From positions 18,595-82,594 of the forward strand of contig JAUXYI010000010.1 in assembly GCA_030694425.1 (NCBI GenBank): a stretch of DNA of 64,000 nucleotides, read 5' to 3'. Position numbers and translations under genes: made by a program. The notes below the pieces were generated by a model. It did not search any database. It was not told the DNA's origin and worked only from the letters and a program-made list of their open reading frames with translations. The stretch's first letter is position 1. The number at the start of each line of letters is the position of its first letter. Source of the stretch: Thermodesulfovibrionia bacterium. Lineage in GTDB: Bacteria; Nitrospirota; Thermodesulfovibrionia; UBA6902; BMS3Bbin08. Below, in pieces: positions 520-55,340 of the stretch.

Positions 520-1835
520 ATAAATTTTATGAATACCTCGTTTGAAAGAAGAAGACCTTTTCTGGTTAACCTCATGTTATCTTCTCTCAATTCCAAAAGC
601 CCGGCTTCCTGAAGCTCTTTTATTTCTTTATGATAAACCGTCAATATATCACTGCCTTGGGTTTGATAAAAAGTTTTCAGGTTTATGCCTGTAGTCTTTC
701 TTAAGCCAAGAAAAATAGCTTCTGACATAGCCTTATCTTCAGTTATTTCCTCGGTTTCTTTAACAGGGCTCTTATCCGCTGAAATCAAATTTATGTAATC
801 ATCCAAAATAGCAGTATTATGAAACCTCTTCCTTTTTATAAAATAATGCGCCCCTAAGCCAACTCCATAATATTCTCCCCTATCCCAGTAATTCAGATTG
901 TGCCTGCAGAAATAATCAGGCAGTGCAAAATTGGATATTTCATAATGTACAAAGCCCTCGGATTCTAAATAATCTATTGCATAGTTATACATCTCAATAA
1001 TTTTTTCTTCTTTCAATGGTATTAGTTTGTGTTGTTCCTTGAATATCCTCCTTTGTCCTTTTCCGTCATTCCTGCGAAAGCAGGAATCCATGTCTTTCCC
1101 GCTTTGTTCTGGATTCCCGCCTACGCGGGAATGACAACTCCCACAGTTGTTATTCTTTGTGTTATTTGTGGCATAAGCATCCGCCTTCATATACTCATAA
1201 AGCAAAGTCCCCTTCTCCACAGTAAGTTCATAAGTAGAAATATGTTTTGGCTTTAAATTTACTGCCTTCTCAAGTGTTTTCTTCCAGCTTTCGATATTTT
1301 GTTCTGGGATGCCATATATAAGGTCTATTCCAATATTTTCAAAACCTGCATCCCTTGCAAGATAAACAGCCTGCTCTGCATCATGAGAGGAATGAAGCCT
1401 GCCGAGAAGATTAAGTTCATCGTCATTAAAAGATTGAACCCCTATACTAATTCTATTTATACCAGAAGAAAAGATCGCGGAAAGCTTTTCCTTACCGAGT
1501 GTCCCGGGGTTTGCTTCAATAGTCGCCTCATAATTTTTTACAAAGGATAATTGTTTAAAAATGCAGGTGATTAAATCAGACAAGGCATCAGCAGAGAGGA
1601 CAGTAGGTGTTCCTCCCCCTATATAAAGACTTGAGAACACCCTCCCCCTTACCCCCTCCCCTTGAGGGAGGGGGATGGGGGAGGGGTAATTTCCATAGGA
1701 GATATTGTGTATCTCTTTTTTTATCGCCTGAAGATAAGCCCCTTCTTTTTCAGGGTCATAAATACCGGATACAAAGTCGCAGTAGATACATCTCTTCAGA
1801 CAAAAAGGGATGTGGACATATAGAGAAAAAACCAT
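516..1835 (-). CDS. hemW: HemW/HemN-like radical SAM haem chaperone (oxygen-independent coproporphyrinogen oxidase family)
   Basis: The N-terminus MVFSLYVHIPFCLKRCIYCDF is the classic HemN/HemW radical SAM start, and the protein has a GGGTP motif. Two repeat-derived in-frame insertions are present. Confidence 0.8.
   Translation of the reverse strand: MVFSLYVHIPFCLKRCIYCDFVSGIYDPEKEGAYLQAIKKEIHNISYGNYPSPIPLPQGEGVRGRVFSSLYIGGGTPTVLSADALSDLITCIFKQLSFVKNYEATIEANPGTLGKEKLSAIFSSGINRISIGVQSFNDDELNLLGRLHSSHDAEQAVYLARDAGFENIGIDLIYGIPEQNIESWKKTLEKAVNLKPKHISTYELTVEKGTLLYEYMKADAYATNNTKNNNCGSCHSRVGGNPEQSGKDMDSCFRRNDGKGQRRIFKEQHKLIPLKEEKIIEMYNYAIDYLESEGFVHYEISNFALPDYFCRHNLNYWDRGEYYGVGLGAHYFIKRKRFHNTAILDDYINLISADKSPVKETEEITEDKAMSEAIFLGLRKTTGINLKTFYQTQGSDILTVYHKEIKELQEAGLLELREDNMRLTRKGLLLSNEVFIKFI
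1065..1135. repeat. GTCATTCC...GGAATGAC palindromic dispersed repeat, in-frame inside hemW
   Basis: gtcattcctgcgaaagcaggaatcca...tggattcccgcctacgcgggaatgac. The same architecture occurs at 2588, 8144 and 41461. Confidence 0.7.
1639..1690. repeat. GC-rich palindromic repeat (CCCCTCCCC...GGGGAGGGG family), in-frame inside hemW
   Basis: ccctcccccttaccccctccccttgagggagggggatgggggagggg. Related copies lie at 8231, 47673, 49432, 54125, 55391, 61001 and 62268. Confidence 0.7.
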
Positions 1836-41568: not shown

Positions 41569-43587
41569 TTATGACTGCCTTAGTAATTTGTTATTAGGGG
41601 TATTTTGGGAATCTGCAAGAAAATCCCTTATATCATCTATTGCTGTAGTCATCCTGCATTCGGGAAGGGAATTCAAAAAATGCACTCCGTAACCCTTTGT
41701 CATAAGTCTTGAATCAAGGATTGCAATAATGCCCTTATCTGTTTTTGTTCTTATCAATCTTCCAAAGCCTTGTTTAAGCAGGATTGCTGCCTGAGGGACT
41801 TGATAATGTGAAAAGGGGTCTTTGTCTTCTCTTTGAAGCGCCTCCATCCTTGCCTCAGTAATTGGCGCATCAGGGACAGCAAATGGAAGTTTTGTTATTA
41901 TCACACATTGTAAATCATCTCCGGGAACATCAATGCCCTGCCAGAAAGTATATGTGCCAAACAGTGCAGAATTATTATCATTTTTAAATTTTTCAATCAA
42001 CCTGTAACTGTCTGCATCTCCCTGTTTATAGATTTTAACTCCTGCTACATCAACGGTATCATAAGCCTTGTTAAGAAGGCTGTAACTTGTGAAAAGCACA
42101 AGCGTCCTTCCCCTCATTATTTCAAGAATCTTTTTCAGCCTGTCAATCAATCTTTCTTCAAAATCTTTCGCCCTTGGCTCTGAGAGGTCATCGGCTATGT
42201 AAAGGATAGATTGCTCTTTATAATTAAAAGGAGACTCCAGAAGAAGTCCCTCTGCATCCTGTAACCCGAGACGCTCTTTTATATAATCAAAATTATTATT
42301 GATGGAAAGCGTTGCTGACGTAAGAATAGCAGAACTTAGATTATCAAAAACACCTGTTTTAAGTAATTTTGCTATTTCTATGGGCGTTGCTACAAACCTC
42401 AACATTTTTCCATCTTTCTCAGTCCAGTAGACATAACCTTCAAGTTCCTGCATTAATATTGTTTTCAGGGAATTCAAGAACTCTTCACATCTATTCATAA
42501 GGGCGATTATCCCTTTCTTTTCATCCTCATCACCTGATGCTTTATATACACCGCCAAGCTGATTAAATAGTTTTGATAGAGGCTCAGATATTGTATCCCC
42601 CGCAAATCCCTTTTCATGGATTCTCAATGTGGTTAAATTATTCAATCTCTGAGCAAGCTCCTGAAAGAATATATCGCCTTTTATCCGCACCATGTTTAAA
42701 AGTGCATTTGCCTCTGAGAAGTCGCTCTGAGAAAGCCATTTAAGCCTTATGAGCAAACCCTTGCCGTGCGTGCTCAGAATGGAATCAAGCAGATGTTTGA
42801 GTTTATAGTTGGATATTTCTACTCCGAGATAATCTGCTGCCACATCCTCAAGCTCGTGTGCCTCATCAAAGACCGTAATATCAAAATGCGGCAGAACCTG
42901 CCAGCCTGAAGCAATATGCGCAAAAAAGAGATGATGGTTTGTGACAAGGACATGAGCGCGCCTTTCATTTGCCTTTGCCTTTTGATAAAAACATCTATTA
43001 AAAAGTTTGCAGTCCTTGCCATAGCATAAATCGCCTTCTCTGCAAACCTTCTGCCAGAGACTTCCTCTTATATCAATCTCAGCCCTGATGCCTGTGTCGG
43101 TTCCCCTTATCCAATTTAGTAATGCATCTGTTTCACGAATCTCATCTATTTCAAAAAGTCCGTGGGTCTTTGTCTGTTCCAGTCTCCTCAGGCACACATA
43201 ATTCTCACTTCCGAGACAGAGTGCGAACCGCAGATTTTTAAAGATATTATCTCTTAAGAAAGGAAGTTCTTTTTCAATAAGCTGTCTCTGGAGCGCCTTT
43301 GTGTATGTTGATACAACTACCCTTTTACTGCTTGAACCACTTAAACTGTTTGTCCCGAAATATCGGGATGAACTATTTTCATCAAGCACCCATTCAATAA
43401 CAGGGACAAGATAGGCAAGGCTTTTGCCGACGCCTGTACCTGCCTCTACTATCAGGTGGTTTTTATTTCTCAGGGCTTTATCAATTGCCTCTGCCATTGC
43501 CTGCTGTTCAGGTCTTTGTTCATAGGCATGAAGCGTCTTGGAGAGGACACCGCTGATACCAAAAAAATTATTTAACATTTTCATCAC
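41569..43587 (-). CDS. dinG: DinG/Rad3-family ATP-dependent DNA helicase
   Basis: Walker A AGTGVGKSLAYL, a DEAH-like VFDEAHEL motif, and an FeS Cys cluster. Confidence 0.8.
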   Translation of the reverse strand: MMKMLNNFFGISGVLSKTLHAYEQRPEQQAMAEAIDKALRNKNHLIVEAGTGVGKSLAYLVPVIEWVLDENSSSRYFGTNSLSGSSSKRVVVSTYTKALQRQLIEKELPFLRDNIFKNLRFALCLGSENYVCLRRLEQTKTHGLFEIDEIRETDALLNWIRGTDTGIRAEIDIRGSLWQKVCREGDLCYGKDCKLFNRCFYQKAKANERRAHVLVTNHHLFFAHIASGWQVLPHFDITVFDEAHELEDVAADYLGVEISNYKLKHLLDSILSTHGKGLLIRLKWLSQSDFSEANALLNMVRIKGDIFFQELAQRLNNLTTLRIHEKGFAGDTISEPLSKLFNQLGGVYKASGDEDEKKGIIALMNRCEEFLNSLKTILMQELEGYVYWTEKDGKMLRFVATPIEIAKLLKTGVFDNLSSAILTSATLSINNNFDYIKERLGLQDAEGLLLESPFNYKEQSILYIADDLSEPRAKDFEERLIDRLKKILEIMRGRTLVLFTSYSLLNKAYDTVDVAGVKIYKQGDADSYRLIEKFKNDNNSALFGTYTFWQGIDVPGDDLQCVIITKLPFAVPDAPITEARMEALQREDKDPFSHYQVPQAAILLKQGFGRLIRTKTDKGIIAILDSRLMTKGYGVHFLNSLPECRMTTAIDDIRDFLADSQNTPNNKLLRQS

Positions 43588-43621
43588 ACATAATGCATAA
43601 CTCTTGACAAATCCATTGGAA

Positions 43622-44578
43622 TCATTTCTCTGCGCTTATTAATACAGAATCCGCAAGGAGCTGTTTTTGTATTTTTCTGAAGCCTGTCTTTAAATACCAC
43701 CTTTTGACTTCTTCTGGAGAGTAACATCTTCCTCCGCTCGTATTTGCGAGCATGTTTATAGAGAAAAGCGCTGCTTGAACAGGATGGGTTCTGTCTTTAT
43801 CAATAAAGAATTCCTGAATTACAATTCTGCCGTTTTTGTTTAGTGCATTTCTGCATTTTTTTAAAACCATAATATTATCGTCTTCTGAATATGCATGTAA
43901 AATCTGACTTATAAAGATGAGGTCATAATCTCTTCCAAAATCATCAGCAAGAAAATCTCCCTGTAAAAAATTTATGTTTTTCACACCTGACTTCTTGATA
44001 ACTTCTTTTGCAATCTCTATAGTCTCCGGCGTATCAAAGATTGTTACTGAGATGCCTTTTTTTGCCATTTCGATTGTGTATGTGCCGGGACCGCCGCCGA
44101 GGTCAAGCGCCTCTTTTACTCCCTTCAGTCCAACTGCCTTAAGAACTTTGTCTGCTTTTAAAACAGCGAGGTTGTGCATTCCAAGAATAAAGGCTCTGTG
44201 ATCGTGTGATACATGATGCGGTTTGCCTGTCTTAACCACATTATCAAGTCCTGACCAGTTCTGCCATAAAGTATCTGCGTGCCTGATGATATCTCCCTGA
44301 TAGTAGGGACTTCCTGATACAAGAAATTGAGAGGCAAGACTTGAATTTTTATATTGAGCCTTTTGTTTTTTAAGAAGACCAAGCCCTGTAAGTGCATCAA
44401 GTAAAATCTCAGTTGCCCTTTTGTCCGCTCCTATATCTTTTGCAAGCCCTGCTGCTGCCTTTTGCTTTTTAAGATAATCAAATACCCTGTAATTATTCGC
44501 TGTGAGCAAAACCCGTGCTCCCTGAAAACCACCCCAGATTTTCCTTAATTCTTTAGACTGCTCAAGAATGTCTGCCAT
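43622..44578 (-). CDS. class I SAM-dependent O-methyltransferase (COMT-like)
   Basis: LDLGGGPGTYTIEMAKKG motif I and an N-terminal dimerisation region. Confidence 0.7.
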   Translation of the reverse strand: MADILEQSKELRKIWGGFQGARVLLTANNYRVFDYLKKQKAAAGLAKDIGADKRATEILLDALTGLGLLKKQKAQYKNSSLASQFLVSGSPYYQGDIIRHADTLWQNWSGLDNVVKTGKPHHVSHDHRAFILGMHNLAVLKADKVLKAVGLKGVKEALDLGGGPGTYTIEMAKKGISVTIFDTPETIEIAKEVIKKSGVKNINFLQGDFLADDFGRDYDLIFISQILHAYSEDDNIMVLKKCRNALNKNGRIVIQEFFIDKDRTHPVQAALFSINMLANTSGGRCYSPEEVKRWYLKTGFRKIQKQLLADSVLISAEK

Positions 44579-44589
44579 ATGAGTTATGA

Positions 44590-44670
44590 GATTGCTTCAG
44601 CACCCCGTGCTTCGCAATGACAGTATTATGTTCGTCTATTTTGTCATTGCGAGCTAAGCGAAGCAATCTA
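44590..44670. repeat. AGATTGCTTCAGC...TTCGCAATGAC / GTCATTGCGAGCTAAGCGAAGCAATCT repeat pair
   Basis: Direct reading of the sequence. Confidence 0.7.
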
Positions 44671-44751
44671 TTTTTTGCAGTATTTAGATAAATCTAATTC
44701 GGTTCATTTAATTAAATCTGCAATTTTAAATTTTCAATCTGCAATTTAGAA

Positions 44752-45030
44752 TTATAATCCCATTTTCTTTAATGCATCATCCCCGATGTCTTTGACTATA
44801 GGCGCCTCCTCAGGAAGATAAAGCATTACCCCGCCTTTAACAGGTCTGATAACTATCTTCCCTTCTTTAGCAAGTTTGTTTGTTGCGTCAACAGGGTTTT
44901 CACCATCAAAATATTTTTTAAACGCCGTGTTGAACCCTGAATAAACAGTGTGTATGCCTTTGTATCCTTCCTTTCTGAGACTGACAATTGCCTTCTTGAT
45001 AAACTCCTCTTGACTCAATTTTTCTGACAT
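44752..45030 (-). CDS. hypothetical 92-aa protein
   Basis: ORF only. Confidence 0.35.
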   Translation of the reverse strand: MSEKLSQEEFIKKAIVSLRKEGYKGIHTVYSGFNTAFKKYFDGENPVDATNKLAKEGKIVIRPVKGGVMLYLPEEAPIVKDIGDDALKKMGL

Positions 45031-45058
45031 AATGTCCTCCTTTGGTTAGGATTAAAAG

Positions 45059-46405
45059 TTATTGTTTATTCCCTTCATCTTCTATTTCTCCATTTTCAGT
45101 TGTTTCATCGGATATATATAATAAGGATTCTTGTGATGGCAATTCTTGCACGTTTTTAAGTTTTCGCTGAATCTGTTTTGTTCTGACCCCAACTAACTTA
45201 TCTATTTCATCGTCTGCTTCCTTTATCTTTTCTTGGGCTTTCTTTAAAACAACACCAAACCTTTCAAATTCTGTTTTGACAGCTCCTAAAATCTTCCATA
45301 CTTCACTTGATCTTTTTTCAATCACTAGAGTTCTAAATCCCATCAGCAAGCTGTTTAAAAATGCAGATAGTGTTGTTGGGCCAGCAATCATTATATTATA
45401 GCTTTGTAAGACTTCGAATAAAGCAGGCCTTCTTACAACTTCAGCATAAAGCCCCTCAATAGGTAAAAACATAATTCCAAAATCTGTAGTTTTTGGAGGG
45501 TCAATATATTTATCCCTGATATCTCTGGCAAATTTTTTTATATCATCTTCAAGAAGTTTTGCGGCCTTCTCGATAGTAGATGGATCTCCGTGTTCGTAAG
45601 CATTTACTAATAATTCATAATTCTCCCTTGGAAATTTTGAGTCCAGAGGTAAATAAACAACTTCTCCTAAATCGTCTTTCCCGGGGAGCTTAATCGCAAA
45701 TTCAACACTATTGCCTTTTTTGATAGCTACATTTCTACCATATTGCTCCGGAGTTAAAATTTGCTCCAAGATATTGCCCAACAAGATTTCGCCAATTATC
45801 CCTCGAGTCTTTACATTTGATAAGACTTTTTTCAAATCGCCAACCCCGACAGCTAAGGACTGCATTTCTCCCAATCCTTTATGAACCAATTCCAATCTTT
45901 CACTAACCATTTTAAAGGATTGACTGAGCCTGTCTTCGAGTGTTTTATGAAGTTTCTCATCAACAGTCTCTCTCATCTTATCTAATTTTTTGGCGTTATC
46001 TTCTTGAAGTAATTTTAATCTCTCCTCCACTGTTTCTCTCATCTTATCAAGTTTTTGCTCATTGGTCTGGGTTAATGTAGTAAGTTGTTTTGAAAAAATA
46101 TCTAACTGATCTTTCTGCATTGTCGCAATCTTCGTCATTTGGTTAAGAAGCAAATCATTAAATGACTTTAAAGAATTACTCACTTCTTCTCTTAGCTGTT
46201 TCGAGCTATTACCGGCCTCTTCTCTGTTCTGGGCTATTTCTTCTTTTAGAGTTCTTTCAGTCTTTTCCTGATTTTTTTCAAAAGATGCCAACTGGGTTTC
46301 AAATTGTAATAGCTTAGTGTTCGAACTGCGTATTAACAGCACAATTAATAAAATAACAGCCCCGACAACTAAGACCGTCAATATTATCAATAAGAATTCA
46401 ATCAT
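45059..46405 (-). CDS. rmuC: DNA recombination protein RmuC
   Basis: An N-terminal TM segment, a long coiled coil, and a C-terminal RmuC nuclease-like domain. Confidence 0.8.
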   Translation of the reverse strand: MIEFLLIILTVLVVGAVILLIVLLIRSSNTKLLQFETQLASFEKNQEKTERTLKEEIAQNREEAGNSSKQLREEVSNSLKSFNDLLLNQMTKIATMQKDQLDIFSKQLTTLTQTNEQKLDKMRETVEERLKLLQEDNAKKLDKMRETVDEKLHKTLEDRLSQSFKMVSERLELVHKGLGEMQSLAVGVGDLKKVLSNVKTRGIIGEILLGNILEQILTPEQYGRNVAIKKGNSVEFAIKLPGKDDLGEVVYLPLDSKFPRENYELLVNAYEHGDPSTIEKAAKLLEDDIKKFARDIRDKYIDPPKTTDFGIMFLPIEGLYAEVVRRPALFEVLQSYNIMIAGPTTLSAFLNSLLMGFRTLVIEKRSSEVWKILGAVKTEFERFGVVLKKAQEKIKEADDEIDKLVGVRTKQIQRKLKNVQELPSQESLLYISDETTENGEIEDEGNKQ

Positions 46406-46440
46406 TTAAGAGTCTCTAACCAATTTACTAAAAATAGCCG

Positions 46441-46905
46441 TCATTCAATCTCCTCTGGAGTTATCTTCCACTCTACTGACCATTTGCCGTCCTCAGACTT
46501 TTTCAAGCATACAACGCCACCCATCTTAAAATCTATTACATTCTTGTCTTTATCACCAGTAAGAATCAGCGATGAAAGTCTGCTTAAATGCGGCAGATGA
46601 CCTACAAGCATTATGTCTTCATTTATGTTAGAAATACGCTCAAACCAGATTTGAGGGTCATCAAGGGGCGCCAGCCCTTCTGTCTCAGATATTTTCTCTT
46701 CCACCTTAACATAATCAGCCAATACCAGAGCAGTCTGAAATGCCCTTATCTTATTACTATGTAATATCTGGCTTACTTTTATATTCAACCCCGCTATATG
46801 CTTAGCAACCTTCCTGATATCCTGAATTCCTTTTTCTGACAAACTGCGGGCTGCATCTTCCTCTTTGCTTACTGCCTCAGCATGCTGGACAAGATAAAGA
46901 AGCAT
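46441..46905 (-). CDS. sixA: phosphohistidine phosphatase SixA-like (histidine phosphatase superfamily)
   Basis: MLLYLVQHAEA has the RHG-type catalytic His. Confidence 0.7.
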   Translation of the reverse strand: MLLYLVQHAEAVSKEEDAARSLSEKGIQDIRKVAKHIAGLNIKVSQILHSNKIRAFQTALVLADYVKVEEKISETEGLAPLDDPQIWFERISNINEDIMLVGHLPHLSRLSSLILTGDKDKNVIDFKMGGVVCLKKSEDGKWSVEWKITPEEIE

Positions 46906-46929: not shown

Positions 46930-47490
46930 TTATATCCTCTCATACACCCAGACCCTTCCGCCACCTTTTATTTCATCTATTCTTTTTACAAGCCTTTTCT
47001 TGTGAAGATTTAATAATCTTGTGCCACTTGTATTAGCCTCAAGCTTCATAATCTCTGATAATTCTTTAGCAGTAATTTTGCCTTTTTTTACAATAAGTTC
47101 CAGAGTTTCCTTAAGATAATTGTTTAAGTTGCCGAGAAGTATTTTCTTCCCATTTTTCATATCTGCTATGACAGCTAAATCCTTCCTCTCCAGAGCTACT
47201 TCTATGTTCTCTTTTTGGTTGTCATTAAGACCCGCAAGAATGATGTATTTGTCTCCGTACTCGTTGCTCAATAAACGGGATATAAGTTTTGCCACAATCT
47301 CATCGGCACAGGAATAATCAATTATTCCTATCTTAGAGAAATCAAGGGCAATAACCTCTCCATCTTTTTCTTTCTCAATATCTCTCTTAATCCGCTCCCG
47401 TATCACCTGACCCGATTGTCTCGTAACAAGGTCGGATGAACCATTCTTGAGTTCTTCTTTAAGGAGTTTATAGAGATTATAAGTTTGCAT
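46930..47490 (-). CDS. STAS-like (DUF4325-like) plus C-terminal wHTH protein, last gene of a three-gene overlapping operon
   Basis: ...VIALDFSKIGIIDYSCADEIVAKL... followed by a C-terminal helix-turn-helix. It overlaps the MTase gene by 14 nt. Confidence 0.4.
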   Translation of the reverse strand: MQTYNLYKLLKEELKNGSSDLVTRQSGQVIRERIKRDIEKEKDGEVIALDFSKIGIIDYSCADEIVAKLISRLLSNEYGDKYIILAGLNDNQKENIEVALERKDLAVIADMKNGKKILLGNLNNYLKETLELIVKKGKITAKELSEIMKLEANTSGTRLLNLHKKRLVKRIDEIKGGGRVWVYERI

Positions 47491-48505
47491 AACTTTCTTT
47501 TAAATCTGAATTGTCTATCTTTGAACCGAATTTCAATTTCTTCGGGTCAATCTTTTTATCAAATTTAACAGGGTCTTTAAAGACATATGGCAGATTGAGG
47601 ATTTCTTTCTTAAAATCAATATCCTTCTTCTTCTGAATAATAATTTCAATTTTATTCGGATTATTATCTAAAAATCCCCCTGCATCCCCCTTTTTAGCAA
47701 AAGGGGGCAAGGGGGGATTTTTCTCACCATTTATTAGCTTCTCTTTAATTATTGGCAAGAAGTCCTTGTTGGTTTCATATCCGATAAAGTCCCTTCTGAG
47801 ATTTCTTGCAGCAAGGCATGTTGTGCCGCTCCCAAGGAATGGGTCAAGAACTGTATCTCCTACGAAACTGAACATTTTAATTAATCTTTTTGGTAATTCT
47901 TCTGGAAACATTGCAAGGTGTTTGTCCTGTTTTTCACCAGAGAAATTCCAGTGTCCATAAAAATATTCGTTCCATTCTTCAGTAGTAAGTTTAGATTTTT
48001 CTTTTATCTCTCGACTTACTTTCGGTGGATCACCGAGCTTCTTGAATATCAGAATAAACTCATAATCGAATTTGATGATTCCATTCCTTGGATACGGGAA
48101 AGACCCCATAATTGTAGCTCCGCCTGTTGTATTACATGTCGTAACCTTTTGCCAGATAATCGCTCCCATATAATCAAATCCAATTGTTTCACAGAATTTT
48201 ATTATTTCTTCTCTAATTGGAATAATTTTGTATCTTCCGTAATAAACAGACCTTGCGAACTGGTCTCCAATGTTTATGCATAAACGACAGCCGTTATGTA
48301 ATACGCGGTAGCACTCTTTCCATACAAGGTTCAGATTATTTATGTAATCCTCGTAACTGTCATTAAACCCTATCTGGCTTCCATTGCCATAGTCTTTCAA
48401 TTGCCAGTAAGGAGGTGAGGTGATGATGAGATGAACGCTTTCATCTTTTAGTTCATCCATCCTCCTGCTGTCGCCAATGATTATGTTTGTTTTAGGGTTT
48501 ATCAT
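47477..48505 (-). CDS. beta-class DNA methyltransferase (N4-C/N6-A, SPPY then DPFLGSGTT)
   Basis: Motif IV IITSPPYW precedes motif I LDPFLGSGTTCLAA. An in-frame GC-palindrome repeat insertion lies near the 3' end. Confidence 0.8.
   Translation of the reverse strand: MINPKTNIIIGDSRRMDELKDESVHLIITSPPYWQLKDYGNGSQIGFNDSYEDYINNLNLVWKECYRVLHNGCRLCINIGDQFARSVYYGRYKIIPIREEIIKFCETIGFDYMGAIIWQKVTTCNTTGGATIMGSFPYPRNGIIKFDYEFILIFKKLGDPPKVSREIKEKSKLTTEEWNEYFYGHWNFSGEKQDKHLAMFPEELPKRLIKMFSFVGDTVLDPFLGSGTTCLAARNLRRDFIGYETNKDFLPIIKEKLINGEKNPPLPPFAKKGDAGGFLDNNPNKIEIIIQKKKDIDFKKEILNLPYVFKDPVKFDKKIDPKKLKFGSKIDNSDLKESYANL
47673..47722. repeat. GC-rich palindromic repeat in-frame inside the MTase gene
   Basis: aaatccccctgcatccccctttttagcaaaagggggcaaggggggattt encodes PPLPPFAKKGDAGGF. 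Confidence 0.65.
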
Positions 48506-49349
48506 TTTTTATTTTATTCGCCCTATAGAGAAGTCCAAATTGAACACCATTCAGTGGATCAGGTTGTTTACCATAATGATCACTTAACACAGAAGTATTT
48601 CTCGATAATCCCAGCAAATAATTAGATGCTCGGTTCTTTTTTTCTATTTCCATTTTATACGCTACCAATTCAAAGCCGATATCAGATAACTGCCATCCTC
48701 CATATGTTTGCATATGTGTTAGAAGCTTCTTTTTCCCGAGTGATCTTATTGTAAAATTTATATCCCTTCCCCTCATTAGGTATTTAGTGAGCAATAAATT
48801 CTCTAAATCAGTATCGCTCATAAAACCATTTTTCTTGTCGCTTATGTCTATGCAAATCTTTTTAAGTTTTTCATTGACTGATTCTGAAAACTTAGCCATA
48901 TCTATCTGAGACTCTTTTTGTTCAACCTTCTTTTTGTCAAACCAACCTGCCTGCTTTAAGTCTTTGATAAACGATGTGATAGCCTTAACAATTGACCTGG
49001 GTTTGTCACGATCAAACGGGATATAGGGTTTTTGATCAATAGTTGGAACAGTACAGTTTTTATCTACTAAGTAAATCGCCTTTTCCGGCTTATTTTTGAA
49101 CTTTTGTGTTGCTTGTCCCATTTCATGAGAAACGCTTGAAGAAGGAGAGCTTCCTATTCGAGGCGTAATCAAAAAAATTGCTCCCTCAGCAGAGTCAAAG
49201 TAATGTTCTTCTTTATCTTGAAGGGTCTTCCCTTTATTAGAAGATAAAGGGATCATGCTTACTTCAATATCAAGTTCAGCAAGAAAATCCTTAAAGTCAC
49301 GCGCTAAATCTTCTTCTTGAGTGTCATATAAAAGTAAAATATTATTCAT
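48492..49349 (-). CDS. hypothetical protein with N-terminal TIR-like/nucleotide-binding alpha/beta domain and C-terminal wHTH-like region (tentative)
   Basis: MNNILLLYDTQEEDLARDFKDFLAELDIEV...AIFLITPR...AIYLVDKN. It is the first gene of the overlapping operon. Confidence 0.3.
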   Translation of the reverse strand: MNNILLLYDTQEEDLARDFKDFLAELDIEVSMIPLSSNKGKTLQDKEEHYFDSAEGAIFLITPRIGSSPSSSVSHEMGQATQKFKNKPEKAIYLVDKNCTVPTIDQKPYIPFDRDKPRSIVKAITSFIKDLKQAGWFDKKKVEQKESQIDMAKFSESVNEKLKKICIDISDKKNGFMSDTDLENLLLTKYLMRGRDINFTIRSLGKKKLLTHMQTYGGWQLSDIGFELVAYKMEIEKKNRASNYLLGLSRNTSVLSDHYGKQPDPLNGVQFGLLYRANKIKNDKP

Positions 49350-49431: not shown

Positions 49432-49520
49432 TCTCCCCACCCCCCTCTTTGTCAAAGAGGGAATGATTCCCGACAAGCGGGAATAACATCCTAAGCGCAG
49501 GCTAAAGCCTGCGGCTACCC
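49432..49520. repeat. composite repeat (CCCCACCCCCCTCTTTGTCAAAGAGGGAATG plus GATTCCCGACAAGCGGGAATAAC plus GCGCAGGCTAAAGCCTGCGGC hairpin)
   Basis: Direct reading of the sequence. Confidence 0.65.
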
Positions 49521-49541: not shown

Positions 49542-51362
49542 TCATACACTCACACCCTTCCGACATGCAAATAAAGACGGCTGATTTCCTTCTCGGTTTT
49601 TCACATTAGCAAACTGTTCACGGAAAGCAATCCATTCGCCTTCGTTTATATTAATTAACATTGTCTTGGCCAATGACAAAATCTGATTAACAATATCTTC
49701 ATAAGTCACGTCACAAGCAACCTGATTAATATCGAGTCTCATTAAGACATCTTTTGTATAAGGTCGTTTGGCATCTAAAAATGTTATTGAGGCAAGCAGT
49801 TCTTGAACATATATGCTATTGAGAATAGCCCATACAAAGACAGCTTCTGAAATATTTTCAAAACCTAATAAATAGCAGGTATCGTCCAGCATGAGAGGCT
49901 TGCCGTTCACAGGCAATATCAGAGAAAAGTTTGACCGCTTATAAAGACCGGAGATTGCAACTTTATACGGTTTGAAAGAATACTCTCCCACTCCGAATAT
50001 TGAAAACAACGGTTTGTTTTTATAAATGGTTGATTTCCGCTGATCAAAATAATGTTTATGTTCCATTAAATAACGATAGAGTTTAGGGAATTTATATTCA
50101 ATATATGTTGTGCTTTCTCCGATCATTCTTTGTGTTACAATTACATATTTTCTATGCTGCGTTATTACCGGAGAATTCAAATCGGAACTTTTTATCAACC
50201 CGTACACCAGTTCATCTTCAATATCTACTTCCTGTCCCAACCCGTTACGATATTTATTGTAGGGCAGTATTTCAAGCTCCATGATATTTGAGCAGTCATG
50301 TTTTATCCCCTGCCTCCATATGTATCGAGAAACGCCGTCATATTTTTTATGCGTTCCGTAAGAAGTCATATCGGAAACAAATTTATCTCCAACCCAGCCA
50401 AATGTATTTTCAACAACATTTGGAGCGGCGAGCATTGAGACCTTGCATGAAAAAGCGGATCGATTATCATTCTTGCCAAAGCTGCATTTGAATAATGAGG
50501 CCTCTACAGAAGCGTCAAAGTGTTCTTTGGCATTAATTCTCATGGCAACTGTATTGTGAATGTTGTAGTTCATCTTCGGCAAATCGCAGATCAAGTTTTT
50601 AATCACAGCATTCTTTGTCAGCATTGCCATATGTCCGTTATACTTTGAAAACAACTTAATCATCATTAGGATGATGTATTCACAGATGTCAAAATTTCCC
50701 TTGCCGGTAATAGCATCAAGTCCATTGAGCGCTTTGAAATTACTTTTATTGGGAAGGTTTCGGGCATTTAAGCTTCCCAATTCAGAGTTAGTCACCCACG
50801 GCGGATTGCCTAATATCAAAACATTTTTAGAGCCAATAAATCTTTCAATTTTTCCAAAATCAAATTCGAAAACATTATCAAGGTGTAGACATATCTTCGG
50901 TTTGTTTAATTCCGGCTTATTTATAAAATACTCAAGAATGCTGAATTTAGTCTGCCAATAATATGGCTCGTGAATTTCTACTCCGTGAATTATTTTTACT
51001 TTCTCAAAAAACTTGATGGCTGACAGTAAAAAAGAGCCTTTACCGAAAGTGGGCTCGATTATTACATCCGGCGATATATTCTCTGCAATCAAATATGAAC
51101 ATATTGAATCTGTCAATTCAGGAGGGGTCTGAAAATCTCCATACTCACGTCTGTCGATTCCATCGGAAACCATAAAGCATGGTTCAAGGATTTCCAGCAG
51201 CGTTAAGAAATCCTCCTGACTTCTGAAAAACGTTTCAATTCCCGAAATTTCAGCCAATAGATTATTGGCGAGTTTGAAATCGGTCATATTGCCGATTCTT
51301 GTCTTGAGGTATTGAATTGTATCAGGCTGTAGATGTCTTATTGCAGATCGCATTGTTATCAA
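49542..51362 (-). CDS. type II N6-adenine DNA methyltransferase (gamma-class, NPPW) with large C-terminal TRD
   Basis: Motif I EPTFGKGSF precedes motif IV LGNPPW. It overlaps the downstream REase-like gene by 4 nt. Confidence 0.75.
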   Translation of the reverse strand: MITMRSAIRHLQPDTIQYLKTRIGNMTDFKLANNLLAEISGIETFFRSQEDFLTLLEILEPCFMVSDGIDRREYGDFQTPPELTDSICSYLIAENISPDVIIEPTFGKGSFLLSAIKFFEKVKIIHGVEIHEPYYWQTKFSILEYFINKPELNKPKICLHLDNVFEFDFGKIERFIGSKNVLILGNPPWVTNSELGSLNARNLPNKSNFKALNGLDAITGKGNFDICEYIILMMIKLFSKYNGHMAMLTKNAVIKNLICDLPKMNYNIHNTVAMRINAKEHFDASVEASLFKCSFGKNDNRSAFSCKVSMLAAPNVVENTFGWVGDKFVSDMTSYGTHKKYDGVSRYIWRQGIKHDCSNIMELEILPYNKYRNGLGQEVDIEDELVYGLIKSSDLNSPVITQHRKYVIVTQRMIGESTTYIEYKFPKLYRYLMEHKHYFDQRKSTIYKNKPLFSIFGVGEYSFKPYKVAISGLYKRSNFSLILPVNGKPLMLDDTCYLLGFENISEAVFVWAILNSIYVQELLASITFLDAKRPYTKDVLMRLDINQVACDVTYEDIVNQILSLAKTMLININEGEWIAFREQFANVKNREGNQPSLFACRKGVSV

Positions 51363-52033
51363 CTCTCCGATTTACCGATAATTTTAACTATTCCTTGAAC
51401 GTCTTCATTTAAATCTAGAATTCTTCCATACTGTAACCGCCATTGCAGTGCATTTGATATGGTCAGATATCCTTGTTCAGGCGGACTGTCAAGTATTTCT
51501 TGTGCCAACTTATTCATGGTAATTTCATCGGCGGGAATGTTTCTGTCAGTTAAGTATGCGACAATATCCTCTGCATTTGCGTTGTTCTCCAGCATTTGAC
51601 TGATAGTTCGCGTTAATTGATAATCTGCTGTTCGATTTTTATCTATAAACGTACAGCTTAGAAAATTAAGTCTGGATATTTTCTTTGCAGGATCATCATT
51701 TTTTTCATAAACAAACACTAACAGGTTATATCCTAAACCATATATTTTTTGACGTGCATTTCTAAAAGGGCATGATGATTGAGGTTGTTTAATAGAGGTA
51801 ACTTTAATATCTGTATTTATATCTTCGGAGGGCATGTCAATGCCGTTTGCAGACGAGCCTATTATGTAATCATACTTTGATGAAAGATAGTCCTGAAACT
51901 TGTGTTCAATAAAAGTTCCAACAGCCTTGCCATCCGTTATTCCAAACAAGGCAGAATTATCATATTGGGATTCAGCTTCACAAAAAGCCTTTGCTTCTTT
52001 AATCAAAATATCAATGGTCAGTTTCTGCCTCAT
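51359..52033 (-). CDS. putative type II restriction endonuclease
   Basis: The protein has 224 aa. A PD-(D/E)xK-like IDMPSEDINTDIK segment is present. The gene is translationally coupled to the MTase. Confidence 0.45.
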   Translation of the reverse strand: MRQKLTIDILIKEAKAFCEAESQYDNSALFGITDGKAVGTFIEHKFQDYLSSKYDYIIGSSANGIDMPSEDINTDIKVTSIKQPQSSCPFRNARQKIYGLGYNLLVFVYEKNDDPAKKISRLNFLSCTFIDKNRTADYQLTRTISQMLENNANAEDIVAYLTDRNIPADEITMNKLAQEILDSPPEQGYLTISNALQWRLQYGRILDLNEDVQGIVKIIGKSES

Positions 52034-52143: not shown

Positions 52144-53151
52144 TTAATTAACCAATGAAGAATGTTTAAGCAATTTGCTGATATTTGGCTTGTTCGATGT
52201 CTTCAACATTTCTGACTCTTGCCCTTTAAGAATAGTATTAACCGGCGGAATATTCCATGCAGTGATTGAATCGCAAAGCCATCTATCATGAAAGCTTGAG
52301 AGTATATCCTGGTCAATTATAGTTTTCCATTCAATAGTTATTCCTTTATTATGTAATTCAGCCCTTAATCTTAAAAATTCATTTACTGCTGATTGTGTTT
52401 TATTTTGATCGCCAGAAATTATAACGAAGCTATTTAGCTTAGAAGCATCAAGACTATCGGCCAGAATCTCAAAAGCCTTTTTATCAAAATGCTTATCTAT
52501 CCAGTAGGCTGTTCCTTTTAAGGATTTTATTATCTCTTGTAGTCTTTTTATATTTGAAAATGGTGTTTCTGGTGAAATAAATTGATGAGCAGGTATCTGT
52601 GTAATATCCTGCTGCCATAAGACTTTGACATCTCTGGTATTTTTGTTATATGAAACAATACCGCCGAGTTTTAGAATTTCTAGGAAATTATTAAGCACAA
52701 CATCTTGGAAATCCAGGTGAAAATTGTGATGTTTTAATAAATTGTAGATATTTATTCGTTTAATGTTTTTACTGCCGCTTAAAACCTGAGAAATTAAAAT
52801 GACAGCAGGATGCAATTTAAGTGCTTCACCAAGAATTCTTTTTGCTTCGACTCCATTATTTTTTATGTACTTTTGGTTATAGTATTCTTTACCGAAAGAT
52901 GTTAGAGACACGCTTATTTCTTTAATTTTGTTTTCGATATTATTACTCGTAATGAAGTCGTACCCCTGCACAACTTTCTCTTTTTCTTCGGTCTTTATAA
53001 AATCCATACTTTCAAGAAATGCTATTTCGTCACTGTAATTTACTGTCTTCGACAATTCGCCATGTGCAATTCGCTTTATCAATTCATCAAAATATTTCCA
53101 TGGAAGATTTGTAATAATATATTTAGTATCCTTAGTTTCTGTCTCTTCCAC
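52144..53151 (-). CDS. hypothetical protein (335 aa), unknown function, defence-island context
   Basis: No family recognised. A possible Rx5H (HEPN-like) segment RLRAELH is present. The start codon shares the ATGA overlap with the upstream gene. Confidence 0.4.
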   Translation of the reverse strand: MEETETKDTKYIITNLPWKYFDELIKRIAHGELSKTVNYSDEIAFLESMDFIKTEEKEKVVQGYDFITSNNIENKIKEISVSLTSFGKEYYNQKYIKNNGVEAKRILGEALKLHPAVILISQVLSGSKNIKRINIYNLLKHHNFHLDFQDVVLNNFLEILKLGGIVSYNKNTRDVKVLWQQDITQIPAHQFISPETPFSNIKRLQEIIKSLKGTAYWIDKHFDKKAFEILADSLDASKLNSFVIISGDQNKTQSAVNEFLRLRAELHNKGITIEWKTIIDQDILSSFHDRWLCDSITAWNIPPVNTILKGQESEMLKTSNKPNISKLLKHSSLVN

Positions 53152-53834
53152 TATTTATTCTCTCCAAAAACAGACTTTTTTGCGCTATAAATATTTTTGA
53201 AAAGTTCTTCGATAGCCTCTCTCGATACCCCAATATCCAAATTTATATTTAAATTGAGAATTAACTTGATATCTCCAGAATGGGGTTTGTGAGGATCGAT
53301 GACTGTTGCCCGCGATTGTGCTTTTTCTTTTTTATTTATATTCTCAGGCGTTTCCTTTATAGGTTTTTTTTGTTGTGATTCTAAAGAAATAAGATCCCCA
53401 TCACTGTTGACGACATCTCTCAGGGCTAAAAAACAGTTAGTTATCATTCTTAACATGCTTTGCTTAACATCCGTAAAATGATTTTTAAAATAGTTTCTAA
53501 CTTCATTGTCATTTTCTGAATTTAAAGCATCTTTTACTGTGTTAAATAAATCTTCGTATACAACACTAATTTTATCCTTCAGACATTGCTTAAATTTGTC
53601 TGGCGTTCCTCTTAAATCATTTGCGGTATTGCTTAAGGTATTGTCGTCATTGAGGAACCCTAAAGTGTTTAACATAGCAATAACATAGGTGGGAGAGCCT
53701 ATGCCAAGAGTCTTCAGTTTTTGATTGTTTATTGGTTTAGGTTCTCTTCTCTCATGGATTAATTTAAAAATTTTGATTGTATCCCCACGCCCAGCATAAG
53801 GTAATTTTGGTTTTTCTTCTGAAGCTCTAGCCAT
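53151..53834 (-). CDS. hypothetical protein (227 aa), unknown function, coupled to 52144-53151
   Basis: ORF with a 1-nt overlap (ATGA) to the downstream gene. No recognisable motifs. Confidence 0.4.
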   Translation of the reverse strand: MARASEEKPKLPYAGRGDTIKIFKLIHERREPKPINNQKLKTLGIGSPTYVIAMLNTLGFLNDDNTLSNTANDLRGTPDKFKQCLKDKISVVYEDLFNTVKDALNSENDNEVRNYFKNHFTDVKQSMLRMITNCFLALRDVVNSDGDLISLESQQKKPIKETPENINKKEKAQSRATVIDPHKPHSGDIKLILNLNINLDIGVSREAIEELFKNIYSAKKSVFGENK

Positions 53835-54497: not shown

Positions 54498-55340
54498 TCA
54501 AATTTCAGGCAAGAGGATGTTTATTTGGGCGCCTGGGAAATAGGCAAGATTAGCCTCTTTTTCTTTTCCCCTTGCCCAATCAGGTATTATCGAAAGCTTT
54601 GCTGTTCCCGAACGGATAGAAAGTTTACCACCCCACTGTTTGGCAAAACGCCTTACTGCTGCAAGTCCATGCCCTCTTCCCTTATCTGCATATCGTGATG
54701 CTCCATGTAGAAGGGCTTTTTCAATAGCATCAATATCTTTTTTAAAAGAAAACCTTTCTGACAACGATTTTCTGAAACCAACTCCGATATCCATAACAGC
54801 AATCTTAACAATATTTTTATCAATATTCTGAAAATGATATTTCTGTATTCCAACAAATCCGATATTTTTGCTATGCTCAAGGATATTTTGGCATACCTCT
54901 GAAAGGGCAACAATAAATCCATTGATTGCCCTGTTATCGTAGTGGAGATGCGTCATAAGGATAGCATGCGCACGTTCTTTTACCCTACCGACAATAAAAT
55001 GGATGTCATCTGACTTTTCTATCGGCGTAATCTCAAGTAAGACATCAGAATAAGAGCTTCTCAGATATTTATTTGATAATTGTGGCTTAGAGGGTTCAAG
55101 CTTAAAATATTTACCGGCAAATTTAAAAAAATCCATTCGCTCAAGATATTTCAGAACATCTTCTGATTCAGGAAGTTTGATGGTTTTCTGGATACCCTCT
55201 GACTTGAGAAGTTCACCAATTTCAAGAATGCCAACCATTCCATAAGGGTCTATAAATGTTACATCCTGAAGATTAATAACATCTACTTCATTGAAAAGTT
55301 TTAGAACTTGCTCAAAGGTATCTTCTGTTATCTGTGACAT
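54498..55340 (-). CDS. STAS-like N-terminal domain fused to GHKL (HATPase_c, anti-sigma-factor-kinase-like) ATPase
   Basis: N-box EVCQNILEHS, G1 box MDIGVGF and G2 box GRGHGL. The N-terminal 110 aa resemble SpoIIAA/STAS (VINLQDVTFIDPYGMVGIL). Confidence 0.55.
   Translation of the reverse strand: MSQITEDTFEQVLKLFNEVDVINLQDVTFIDPYGMVGILEIGELLKSEGIQKTIKLPESEDVLKYLERMDFFKFAGKYFKLEPSKPQLSNKYLRSSYSDVLLEITPIEKSDDIHFIVGRVKERAHAILMTHLHYDNRAINGFIVALSEVCQNILEHSKNIGFVGIQKYHFQNIDKNIVKIAVMDIGVGFRKSLSERFSFKKDIDAIEKALLHGASRYADKGRGHGLAAVRRFAKQWGGKLSIRSGTAKLSIIPDWARGKEKEANLAYFPGAQINILLPEI

What the first reader, a model, noticed from the sequence alone, without database searches (positions are those of the whole stretch)
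46930..49349. Three-gene overlapping operon: TIR-like/wHTH protein, beta-class DNA methyltransferase and STAS-like/wHTH protein (candidate novel defence or epigenetic module)
Three genes on the minus strand overlap successive neighbours by 14 nt: 48492-49349, 47477-48505 and 46930-47490. The middle gene is a clear SPPY/DPFLGSGTT N4-C or N6-A methyltransferase, but neither partner resembles a restriction endonuclease or a C-protein. The first has a Rossmann-like alpha/beta N-terminal domain reminiscent of TIR or nucleotide-binding effector domains, plus a putative wHTH. The last has a DUF4325/STAS-like domain plus a wHTH. The locus is visibly more AT-rich than the flanking housekeeping genes and sits beside a classical restriction-modification pair.
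Basis: partly seen in the sequence, partly recalled or inferred. Interest (0 to 1): 0.7.

Follow-up and report, generated by a model that had tools for sequence, protein, structure and literature searches.

The report
Mosaic defence-island genes, not one module
The three overlapping genes are real, but they are three unrelated pieces packed together in a restriction-modification hot spot: a rare TIR-plus-DNA-binding protein, a truncated leftover methylase, and a CapS-type damage-responsive repressor whose real partner kinase lies 7 kb away.

Summary
The interpretation as one three-gene module does not hold.

- **C (46930-47490)** belongs to the recently described CapS family of STAS-wHTH repressors. 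A profile of its family matches CapS crystal-structure sequences at E 6.5e-11, and S60 aligns with the phospho-serine S54. Its conserved partner is a CapK-like STAS-GHKL kinase at 54498-55340. The two genes are adjacent in divergent relatives. In this Nitrospirota lineage they are separated by 0.8-7 kb of swapped restriction-modification and defence cargo.
- **M (47477-48505)** is a truncated remnant of an MjaI-type (probably CTAG, m4C) type II system. Full-length orthologues carry an SNase-like tail and an MjaI-family endonuclease. The M/C overlap is a deletion scar.
- **A (48492-49349)** is a rare, divergent CAP12/Pycsar-type TIR domain with the conserved Glu, fused to a wHTH. It recurs just upstream of beta-class methylases of at least three restriction-modification types, but more distant homologues have no methylase nearby.

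The A-M-C order occurs only in a near-identical strain. Interest is moderate, mainly for protein A and for the split CapK/CapS arrangement.

The parts
48492..49349 (-). A: divergent CAP12/Pycsar-type TIR domain (aa 1-135, invariant E76) + MarR-like wHTH (aa ~150-256) + disordered tail
47477..48505 (-). M: beta-class N4/N6 DNA methyltransferase. It is a truncated orphan remnant of an MjaI-type type II system, with the SNase-like C-terminal domain and the REase lost.
   Evidence: PF01555 E 1.9e-44. PADLOC MTase_II PDLC03259 E 1.2e-155, covering only model positions 5-323 of 423. Orthologues of 424-429 aa carry an SNase domain and are followed by an RE_MjaI REase.
47670..47725 (.). Palindromic G/C-run element inserted in frame in M (peptide NPPLPPFAKKGDAGGF)
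   Evidence: The orthologue in L001 lacks these ~20-22 aa.
47496..47504 (.). Deletion/recombination junction that fused codon ~335 of M to 6-14 nt upstream of the C start codon, creating the 14-nt M/C overlap
   Evidence: Homology to full-length M ends near 47504. Homology to another C-upstream class starts at 47496. Upstream sequences of C differ between loci right up to the ATG.
46930..47490 (-). C: CapS-family STAS-wHTH repressor, with candidate phospho-acceptor S60
54498..55340 (-). CapK-like STAS-GHKL kinase gene, the conserved partner of C, 7 kb upstream
   Evidence: HATPase_c E 8.4e-7, HATPase_c_2 and weak STAS. Synteny with C in many loci. Directly adjacent to C homologues in L058 and L067-L069. 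N-box, G1 and G2 motifs are invariant.
49542..52033 (-). Neighbouring complete type II system: REase 51359-52033 and gamma-class MTase 49542-51362. It is cargo of the same hot spot.
   Evidence: NCBIfam NF052465 E 2.9e-103. PADLOC REase_II E 3.6e-89 and MTase_II E 2.3e-134.
52144..53834 (-). DUF5343 / PDC-M34A candidate defence gene (53151-53834) with an unknown 335-aa partner (52144-53151). More cargo between the CapK-like gene and C.
   Evidence: PF17278 E 2.7e-15. PADLOC PDC-M34A E 7e-16.
41569..46905 (-). Conserved genes downstream of C: SixA-like phosphatase, RmuC, a 92-aa protein, an O-methyltransferase and a DinG-like helicase. These are the likely 'adjacent pathway' of the CapS-like regulator.
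   Evidence: Pfam RmuC E 8.9e-74 and His_Phos_1. Synteny. In minimal loci C overlaps the DinG-like gene.

Best explanation
The 'operon' is a tail-to-head mosaic of three evolutionarily independent units in a restriction-modification/defence hot spot of a groundwater Nitrospirota (Thermodesulfovibrionia-like) genome.

1. **C is a CapS-family STAS-wHTH repressor.** Its real partner is the CapK-like STAS-GHKL kinase at 54498-55340. By analogy with CapK/CapS, damage-derived ssDNA would activate the kinase. The kinase would phosphorylate S60 of C, and C would leave its operators and de-repress adjacent genes. Here those are probably the DinG-like helicase and RmuC genes downstream. In this lineage the stretch between the two regulator genes has become an integration site where restriction-modification and other defence cassettes are swapped.
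2. **M is the surviving methylase of an MjaI-type (probably CTAG, m4C) type II system.** A deletion removed its SNase-like tail, its endonuclease and the small gene that normally precedes C. M now runs 14 nt into C.
3. **A is a separate, rare single-gene unit.** It has a CAP12/Pycsar-type TIR domain that retains the conserved Glu, fused to a wHTH. It is most likely a DNA-sensing NAD+-consuming effector, or a TIR-regulated DNA-binding protein. It tends to sit just upstream of methylase-led restriction-modification cassettes.

The three genes are probably co-transcribed here. That follows from packing, not from a shared function.

**Shown:** anatomy, homologies, synteny and the junction. **Inferred:** the kinase-substrate relation, the CTAG specificity and the NADase activity.
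For: **C and the kinase**
- C has 1772 homologues, and the best 120 are at least 82% identical.
- In 49 metagenomic loci C is an anchor. The CapK-like gene lies upstream and DinG or SixA-RmuC lie downstream.
- Four divergent loci have the CapK-like and CapS-like genes 68-76 nt apart. L067 and L069 continue with DUF2188 (the YegP family), Prok-E2 and ThiF, as described for capKS loci in PMC13373217.
- The C-family profile hits CapS structures 9Z71 and 9Z72 at E 6.5e-11 and 2.2e-9, and S60 aligns with S54.
- The GHKL N-box, G1 and G2 motifs are invariant in the kinase.

**The hot spot**
- Of 97 ORFs upstream of C in 26 loci, 14 are N6_N4 MTases. The rest include EcoRV, DpnII, EcoO109I, CfrBI, PstI, MjaI, BglII and XcyI REases, plus AbiJ, OLD-like and Piwi proteins.
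- Sequence upstream of C differs between loci up to the ATG.

**M**
- Orthologues of 424-429 aa have an SNase domain and are followed by an RE_MjaI REase.
- The deletion junction maps to 47496-47504.
- L042 keeps only a ~120-nt remnant of the M 3' end next to C.
- CTAG occurs 6 times against 69.6 expected in the window.
- M.MjaI-type enzymes are beta-class m4C CTAG MTases (PMC5867850).

**A**
- See for the fold and the TIR relationship.
- Homologues more distant than L008 have no MTase or CapS-like gene nearby.
Against: - A is immediately followed by a beta-class MTase in several contexts. These cover three MTase/REase types and three chromosomal sites: window/L014, L007, L010, L070/71 and L072/73. 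That is more than the ~14% MTase frequency in the hot spot would predict, so some functional tie between A and restriction-modification cassettes is not excluded.
- A/M overlaps of 4-14 nt are kept in window, L014, L007 and L010.
- The catalytic core of M is about 94% identical to that of L001. Flanking housekeeping proteins are 71-76% identical. M is therefore under constraint or was recently transferred.
- No transcript data exist.
- No operator sites for C were identified. The published CapK proteins carry an N-terminal HTH that this kinase lacks.
Confidence: 0.75

Rival explanations
1. A plus M (with or without an endonuclease) form a functional unit. A would be an accessory arm or controller of methylase-led restriction-modification cassettes. 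Its wHTH would read the DNA or the methylation state, and the TIR domain would act as an abortive-infection effector or as a regulatory domain.
For: - A sits directly upstream of a beta-class MTase in window/L014, L007 and L010 (M type with an MjaI REase), in L070/71 (a 293-aa MTase with an EcoO109I REase) and in L072/73 (a 236-aa MTase with a 385-aa partner). These cover the CapK, RNR and LexA chromosomal contexts.
- The A/M overlaps are 4-14 nt.
- The wHTH half of A is much more variable than the TIR half.
- The catalytic-position Glu is conserved.
Against: - A persists intact where M is destroyed (L009) or absent (L008). Homologues at 40-47% identity (L004, L061, L063, L065) have no MTase nearby.
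- In L001 three unrelated genes separate A from M.
- Each associated MTase already has its own REase.
- Adjacency could simply reflect a cassette-insertion site downstream of A.
Confidence: 0.15
2. The trio A-M-C is a genuine new three-component defence or epigenetic system.
For: - The three genes are co-oriented with two 14-nt overlaps and no terminator-like site inside.
- All three genes are present somewhere in the same locus in L001, L007 and L009.
Against: - The A-M-C order is found only in the near-identical strain L014.
- The orders C-A, A-M-REase-78aa-C and C-A-M remnant occur elsewhere.
- C is a CapS homologue paired with a CapK-like gene.
- The M/C overlap is a deletion scar.
- Family sizes differ about 30-fold.
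- No PADLOC system model covers the trio.
Confidence: 0.03
3. The CapK-like and CapS-like genes regulate the cargo lying between them, including A and M. The whole 8.4-kb block would then be one damage-inducible defence island.
For: - Published CapK/CapS control adjacent immune operons, and about 20% sit next to restriction-modification systems (PMC13373217).
- Nearly all cargo ORFs share the orientation of the two regulator genes.
Against: - In the published systems capS immediately follows capK, and the regulated operon is downstream of capS.
- Cargo differs in every locus up to a few nt from the C start codon, leaving no conserved operator region.
- No binding sites were identified.
Confidence: 0.15

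Closest known systems
CapK/CapS damage-responsive regulators (Chambers et al., EMBO J 2026, PMC13373217; CapS structures PDB 9Z71, 9Z72, 9Z73)
   Same: - C has the STAS-wHTH architecture.
- Its family profile matches CapS sequences over the full length (E 6.5e-11).
- The phospho-serine position is conserved (S60 against S54), as is the GG motif in the wing.
- The partner protein is a STAS-GHKL kinase with intact ATP-binding motifs.
- Divergent relatives show the typical capK-capS-YegP-E2/E1 layout.
- There is an association with restriction-modification systems.
   Different: - The kinase lacks the N-terminal HTH. It is 280 aa, with the N-box Asn at 152 against 218.
- The kinase and repressor genes are not adjacent. 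They are split by 0.8-7 kb of variable cargo, whereas all 443 published capK genes are immediately followed by capS.
- The genes downstream are DNA-repair-type (DinG-like, RmuC), not Bub or CBASS.
- There is no conserved promoter or operator region upstream of C.
MjaI/MthZI/BfaI-type type II restriction-modification systems (CTAG, beta-class m4C methylases)
   Same: - M is a beta-class PF01555 enzyme with an SPPY motif.
- Orthologues in L007 and L010 are followed by RE_MjaI-family endonucleases.
- CTAG is the most avoided 4-mer palindrome in the window (O/E 0.09).
   Different: - The window copy has no endonuclease and has lost the SNase-like C-terminal domain of its orthologues.
- It carries a 22-aa in-frame palindromic insertion.
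- The specificity is inferred, not measured.
CAP12 / Pycsar TIR effectors (Pfam PF10137), TIR-STING, TIR-SAVED, Cat1
   Same: - The A profile retrieves PF10137 proteins.
- The motif (S/N)V.HE.G.A is shared, with an invariant Glu.
- The overall logic is one sensor domain plus one TIR domain in a single polypeptide.
   Different: - The sensor is a MarR-like wHTH rather than a cyclic-nucleotide-binding domain.
- There is no cyclase or other signal-generating partner.
- Direct Pfam scores are below the gathering threshold.
- The family is tiny: about 55 full-length representatives among 1.84 billion.
Restriction-modification controller (C) proteins
   Same: A and C each carry a DNA-binding domain and lie next to a methylase gene.
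   Different: C proteins are ~80-100 aa Xre-type HTH proteins that usually precede the endonuclease gene. Neither A nor C has that architecture. C's family is explained by CapS.

Membership tests
CapS (STAS-wHTH repressor) | [quoted passage not shown] | tested here: met
   [not shown]
CapS (STAS-wHTH repressor) | Sequence homology to experimentally characterised CapS | tested here: met
   Profile A6 against PDB sequences: 9z71_A E 6.5e-11 (query 20-176 against chain 23-176), 9z72_A E 2.2e-9, VapS 9z7o E 0.016.
CapS (STAS-wHTH repressor) | Conserved phospho-acceptor serine on STAS helix 2 (S54 in E. roggenkampii CapS) | tested here: met
   DYSCADE aligns with DSSFPRE. The chain numbering offset of 2 was derived from N145, K151, G169 and G170 in the paper. 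S60 is invariant in close and divergent homologues.
CapS (STAS-wHTH repressor) | Encoded immediately downstream of capK | tested here: not met
   In the window the CapK-like gene ends 7,007 nt upstream of C. The two genes are adjacent (68-76 nt apart) only in the divergent loci L058 and L067-L069.
CapS (STAS-wHTH repressor) | Represses the adjacent operon and is released on DNA damage | not testable with these tools
   Needs reporter, ChIP or phosphorylation assays.
CapK (HTH-STAS-GHKL kinase) | STAS + GHKL kinase domains with the catalytic N-box Asn | tested here: met
   HATPase_c E 8.4e-7, HATPase_c_2 E 0.007, STAS E 0.022. E148, N152, D184xGxG and G221-G225 are invariant across homologues that are 29-35% identical. 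No CapK sequence was available for a direct comparison.
CapK (HTH-STAS-GHKL kinase) | N-terminal HTH domain | tested here: not met
   The protein is 280 aa and the STAS-like motif starts at about aa 20. The N-box Asn is at 152 against 218 in the published CapK. The paper reports that deleting the HTH had no effect in its assays.
TIR domain, CAP12/Pycsar clade (PF10137) | Score above the Pfam gathering threshold | tested here: not met
   PF10137 15.2 bits against 24.7. TIR_2 19.7 bits against 28.
TIR domain, CAP12/Pycsar clade (PF10137) | TIR fold | tested here: met
   [not shown]
TIR domain, CAP12/Pycsar clade (PF10137) | Homology by profile, and a conserved Glu at the catalytic position on helix C | tested here: met
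   The A profile hits proteins of which 10 of 10 tested are PF10137 members. E76 aligns with their invariant Glu, and K46, T62 and F112 are also shared. That this Glu is the catalytic one is an inference from knowledge of TIR NADases.
TIR domain, CAP12/Pycsar clade (PF10137) | NAD+ cleavage activity | not testable with these tools
   Needs a biochemical assay.
Type II restriction-modification system (MjaI-like) | Beta-class MTase with intact catalytic and AdoMet motifs | tested here: met
   PF01555 covers positions 1-221 of 221. SPPY and DPFLGSGTT are present. The core is about 94% identical to orthologues.
Type II restriction-modification system (MjaI-like) | Cognate endonuclease gene adjacent | tested here: not met
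   There is none next to M in the window. RE_MjaI is present after the orthologues in L007 (E 4.6e-30) and L010 (E 2.2e-42).
Thoeris / CBASS / Pycsar (TIR-containing multi-gene systems) | Signal-producing or signal-sensing partner (ThsA, cyclase) in the locus | tested here: not met
   PADLOC gives no such hits for any of the seven island proteins. Neighbours of A homologues are variable.

The most novel reading that the evidence does not exclude
A is a DNA-sensing TIR effector that works as an alternative 'restriction arm' of methylase-led cassettes. Its variable wHTH would read unmethylated or foreign DNA, and the CAP12-type TIR domain would then deplete NAD+. The adjacent methylase would protect the host. 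This would explain why A-M stays translationally coupled, and why the M core stays intact, after the endonuclease was lost.
Probability: 0.07. Interest if true: 0.8.

Novelty: new variant of a known kind. Interest (0 to 1): 0.4.

Why it matters
The analysis corrects a tempting false positive. Tight overlaps in a defence island can come from deletion scars and cassette swapping, and need not indicate a system.

Two leads remain.
- **A split CapK/CapS pair.** This is a lineage-wide variant of the newly described regulators in which the kinase and repressor genes flank a restriction-modification/defence integration hot spot and sit next to DinG and RmuC repair genes. It extends that regulator family to Nitrospirota and to a new gene layout.
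- **A rare TIR-wHTH family.** It has about 55 full-length representatives among 1.84 billion and repeatedly sits in front of methylase-led cassettes. It is a cheap, testable candidate for a DNA-triggered NADase.

Tried and rejected
- PADLOC and NCBIfam scans of A and C gave no system-level hit.
- A sequence search of the A profile against PDB sequences found only spurious EF-hand matches. The same search for the CapK-like protein found nothing.
- A literature search for 'DUF4325' gave nothing useful. So did 'TIR domain + winged helix + restriction-modification'.
- The promoter/terminator scan found no more sites than in shuffles, so it says nothing about operon structure.
- The afdb50 fold library was unavailable. 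The viral fold library gave only weak TIR and deoxyribosyltransferase matches.
- Pfam scans of the small conserved ORFs were empty. These were the 57-aa ORF before A, the 78-aa and 119-aa ORFs before C, the 385-aa partner in L072 and the 227-aa ORF after M in L001.
- The genome-collection scan with A returned only 6 loci. The search with the divergent CapS-like protein returned only 6 proteins.
- The idea that one partner is a hidden REase was rejected, because the folds are TIR+wHTH and STAS+wHTH.
- The idea that C is a restriction-modification controller protein was rejected in favour of CapS.
- The AT-richness argument for horizontal origin was rejected as too weak.
Full report
**Observation.** Both overlaps are 14 nt.
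- M matches PF01555 at E 1.9e-44, with SPPY before DPFLGSGTT, the beta-class order.
- C matches DUF4325 above threshold (E 1e-5).
- A has only sub-threshold TIR hits: TIR_2 E 0.0012 and CAP12-PCTIR_TIR E 0.022.
- The neighbouring REase/gamma-MTase pair is real.
- The AT-richness claim is marginal. The trio is 35.8% GC against 38.4% for the window, with an SD of 2.1%.

**Protein A.**
- An alignment of 35 homologues shows a strongly conserved N-terminal ~135 aa and a much more variable C-terminal half.
- A profile search of 1.84 billion representatives finds only 166 relatives. Of these, 55 at E <= 1e-30 have the full architecture.
- The weaker hits are proteins whose matching segment is a bona fide PF10137 CAP12/Pycsar TIR domain. 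All 10 of 10 tested were, with E down to 4e-22.
- In a joint alignment, E76 of A (SVSHEMGQA) falls on their invariant Glu (NVIHEIGLAQ).
- A is therefore a divergent CAP12-type TIR domain with the catalytic-position Glu, fused to a wHTH.

**Protein C and its real partner.**
- C has 1772 homologues, and the best 120 are at least 82% identical. A has only 61.
- I compared the window's proteins by tblastn with 49 metagenomic loci found with C. C is a syntenic anchor there. A 280-aa HATPase_c gene (window 54498-55340) lies upstream at a variable distance. A DinG-like helicase, or SixA-RmuC-92aa-OMT, lies downstream.
- Four divergent loci were examined: L058, L067, L068 and L069. Their C homologues are 28-35% identical to window C. 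There the kinase-like gene sits directly upstream of the C homologue, 68-76 nt away.
- The kinase keeps an invariant N-box, G1 and G2, and has a STAS-like N-terminus.
- A literature search then found that this pair was described in 2026 as CapK/CapS (PMC13373217). CapK is an ssDNA-activated GHKL kinase. It phosphorylates S54 of the STAS-wHTH repressor CapS, which breaks the CapS dimer and de-represses the adjacent immune operon. In that study 88 of 443 loci lie next to restriction-modification systems, and many are followed by YegP and Bub operons.
- The C-family profile hits the CapS crystal-structure sequences 9Z71 (E 6.5e-11) and 9Z72 (E 2.2e-9) over both domains. After working out the chain-numbering offset, S60 of C aligns with CapS S54.
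- L067 and L069 even show the published capK-capS-YegP(DUF2188)-E2-E1 layout.
- C is therefore a CapS-family regulator, and its partner is the CapK-like gene 7 kb away.
- There are four differences from the published family. The kinase lacks the N-terminal HTH. The two genes are split. The downstream genes are repair-type. No conserved region lies upstream of C.

**The hot spot.**
- The DNA upstream of C's ATG falls into a dozen or so unrelated classes, and they diverge right up to 5-15 nt before the start codon.
- I collected 97 ORFs from this variable stretch in 26 loci. They include 14 N6_N4 MTases and three D12 MTases. They also include EcoRV (x3), DpnII/MboI (x2), EcoO109I, CfrBI, BsuBI/PstI, MjaI, BglII, XcyI and Eco57I enzymes. 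AbiJ, an OLD/AAA_15 ATPase, Piwi and HD proteins are present too.
- In the window the stretch holds a DUF5343/PDC-M34A pair, a complete type II system, A and M.

**Protein M.**
- PADLOC's best model covers only positions 5-323 of 423.
- Orthologues in L001, L007 and L010 are 424-429 aa with an SNase-like C-terminal domain.
- In L007 and L010 the orthologue is followed by an RE_MjaI-family endonuclease: Pfam E 4.6e-30 and 2.2e-42, PADLOC REase_II E 3.4e-80.
- M.MjaI-type enzymes are beta-class m4C CTAG methylases (PMC5867850).
- CTAG is the most avoided 4-mer palindrome in the window, with 6 observed against 69.6 expected.
- Homology to full-length M stops near 47504. Homology to another C-upstream class begins at 47496. 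The M/C overlap is therefore the scar of a deletion that removed the SNase tail, the REase and the 78-aa gene that commonly precedes C.
- L042 retains only a ~120-nt remnant of the M 3' end beside C. Upstream of it are a BsuBI/PstI-type REase and an OLD-like ATPase.
- M also carries a 22-aa in-frame palindromic insertion that its orthologues lack.

**Is any part of the trio linked?**
- The A-M-C order occurs only in L014, which has 97-98% protein identity to the window.
- Other orders occur elsewhere:

| Locus | Gene order |
|---|---|
| L001 | C-A-HEAT-MTase-kinase-M-227aa |
| L009 | C-A-M remnant |
| L011 | C-A (truncated) |
| L007 | CapK-A-M-REase-(78aa)-C |

- A does recur directly upstream of beta-class MTases of three different restriction-modification types, at three chromosomal sites:

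| Locus | MTase and partner | Chromosomal context |
|---|---|---|
| L007 | M with MjaI REase | CapK locus |
| L010 | M with MjaI REase | RNR locus |
| L070/71 | 293-aa MTase with EcoO109I REase | CapK locus |
| L072/73 | 236-aa MTase with 385-aa partner | LexA locus |

- A conserved 57-aa ORF often lies just before A in these loci.
- However, L008 and the more distant homologues L004, L061, L063 and L065 have no MTase nearby. A is intact in L009, where M is destroyed.
- I therefore rate a functional tie between A and restriction-modification cassettes as possible but unproven (about 0.15). I rate the full trio as a system as very unlikely.

**Verdict.** The finding is a real, tightly packed gene string in a defence island, but it is a mosaic: a CapS-family regulator, a decayed MjaI-type methylase and an independent rare TIR-wHTH gene. 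The regulator family is already known, and the methylase is an ordinary remnant. Two things are new variants of known kinds and worth modest follow-up: the TIR-wHTH architecture, and the split CapK/CapS layout bracketing a cargo hot spot.

Noticed in passing
window 1640-1690, 47670-47725, 61000-61045 (and a related hairpin at about 49440-49480): Palindromic G/C-run elements of about 45-50 nt have the form AATCCCCC..CCCCC-loop-GGGGG..GGGGGATT. They lie in frame inside three long ORFs and encode PSPIPLPQGEGVRGRV, NPPLPPFAKKGDAGGF and NPPSPPFDKGGKGGL. The copy in M is absent from orthologues. They resemble Rickettsia-palindromic-element-type in-frame insertions.
   Followed up: partly
whole window: CTAG is extremely avoided, with 6 observed against 69.6 expected (O/E 0.09). 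GATC (0.25) and GGCC (0.40) are also depleted. This is consistent with long exposure to MjaI-, DpnII/MboI- and HaeIII-type restriction.
   Followed up: partly
window 52144-53834: A DUF5343 protein (PADLOC candidate PDC-M34A, E 7e-16) overlaps by one base an unknown 335-aa protein that has no hit in any library. This is an uncharacterised candidate defence pair inside the same cargo stretch.
   Followed up: no
L070:3699-3872, L072:972-1145, L008:9822-9992; remnants at L014:1744-1827 and L003:55-111: A conserved 57-aa ORF (MAKNAPYGD...KGVRKEK) lies directly upstream of A homologues in three chromosomal contexts. It has no Pfam hit and is absent from the window.
   Followed up: partly
L070:6501-6737 and about 14 other loci, for example L057:5728-5949 and L035:3098-3319: A conserved ~78-aa ORF usually lies directly upstream of the CapS-like gene. 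In other 'minimal' loci a 115-119-aa ORF takes that place. Both are missing in the window because of the M/C deletion junction.
   Followed up: partly
L014 (Hainich aquifer contig, proteins 97-98% identical to the window): This near-identical strain has the gamma-class MTase but lacks its REase and the DUF5343 pair seen in the window. Island content therefore varies within one population.
   Followed up: no
L001:6897-10296: In a related MAG, a HEAT-repeat protein, a second N6_N4 MTase and a Ser/Thr kinase are inserted between A and M. The kinase matches PADLOC mad6 and PD-T4-6 at about E 1e-35. One distant relative of A's TIR domain is itself fused to HEAT repeats (P0330).
   Followed up: no
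L058:3785-5642: In a divergent capK/capS-like locus the downstream genes are an alpha/beta-hydrolase-like protein and what looks, by eye from its translation, like a patatin-like phospholipase. This cargo type is not among those listed for capKS in the paper section I read. The call rests on reading the sequence only.
   Followed up: no
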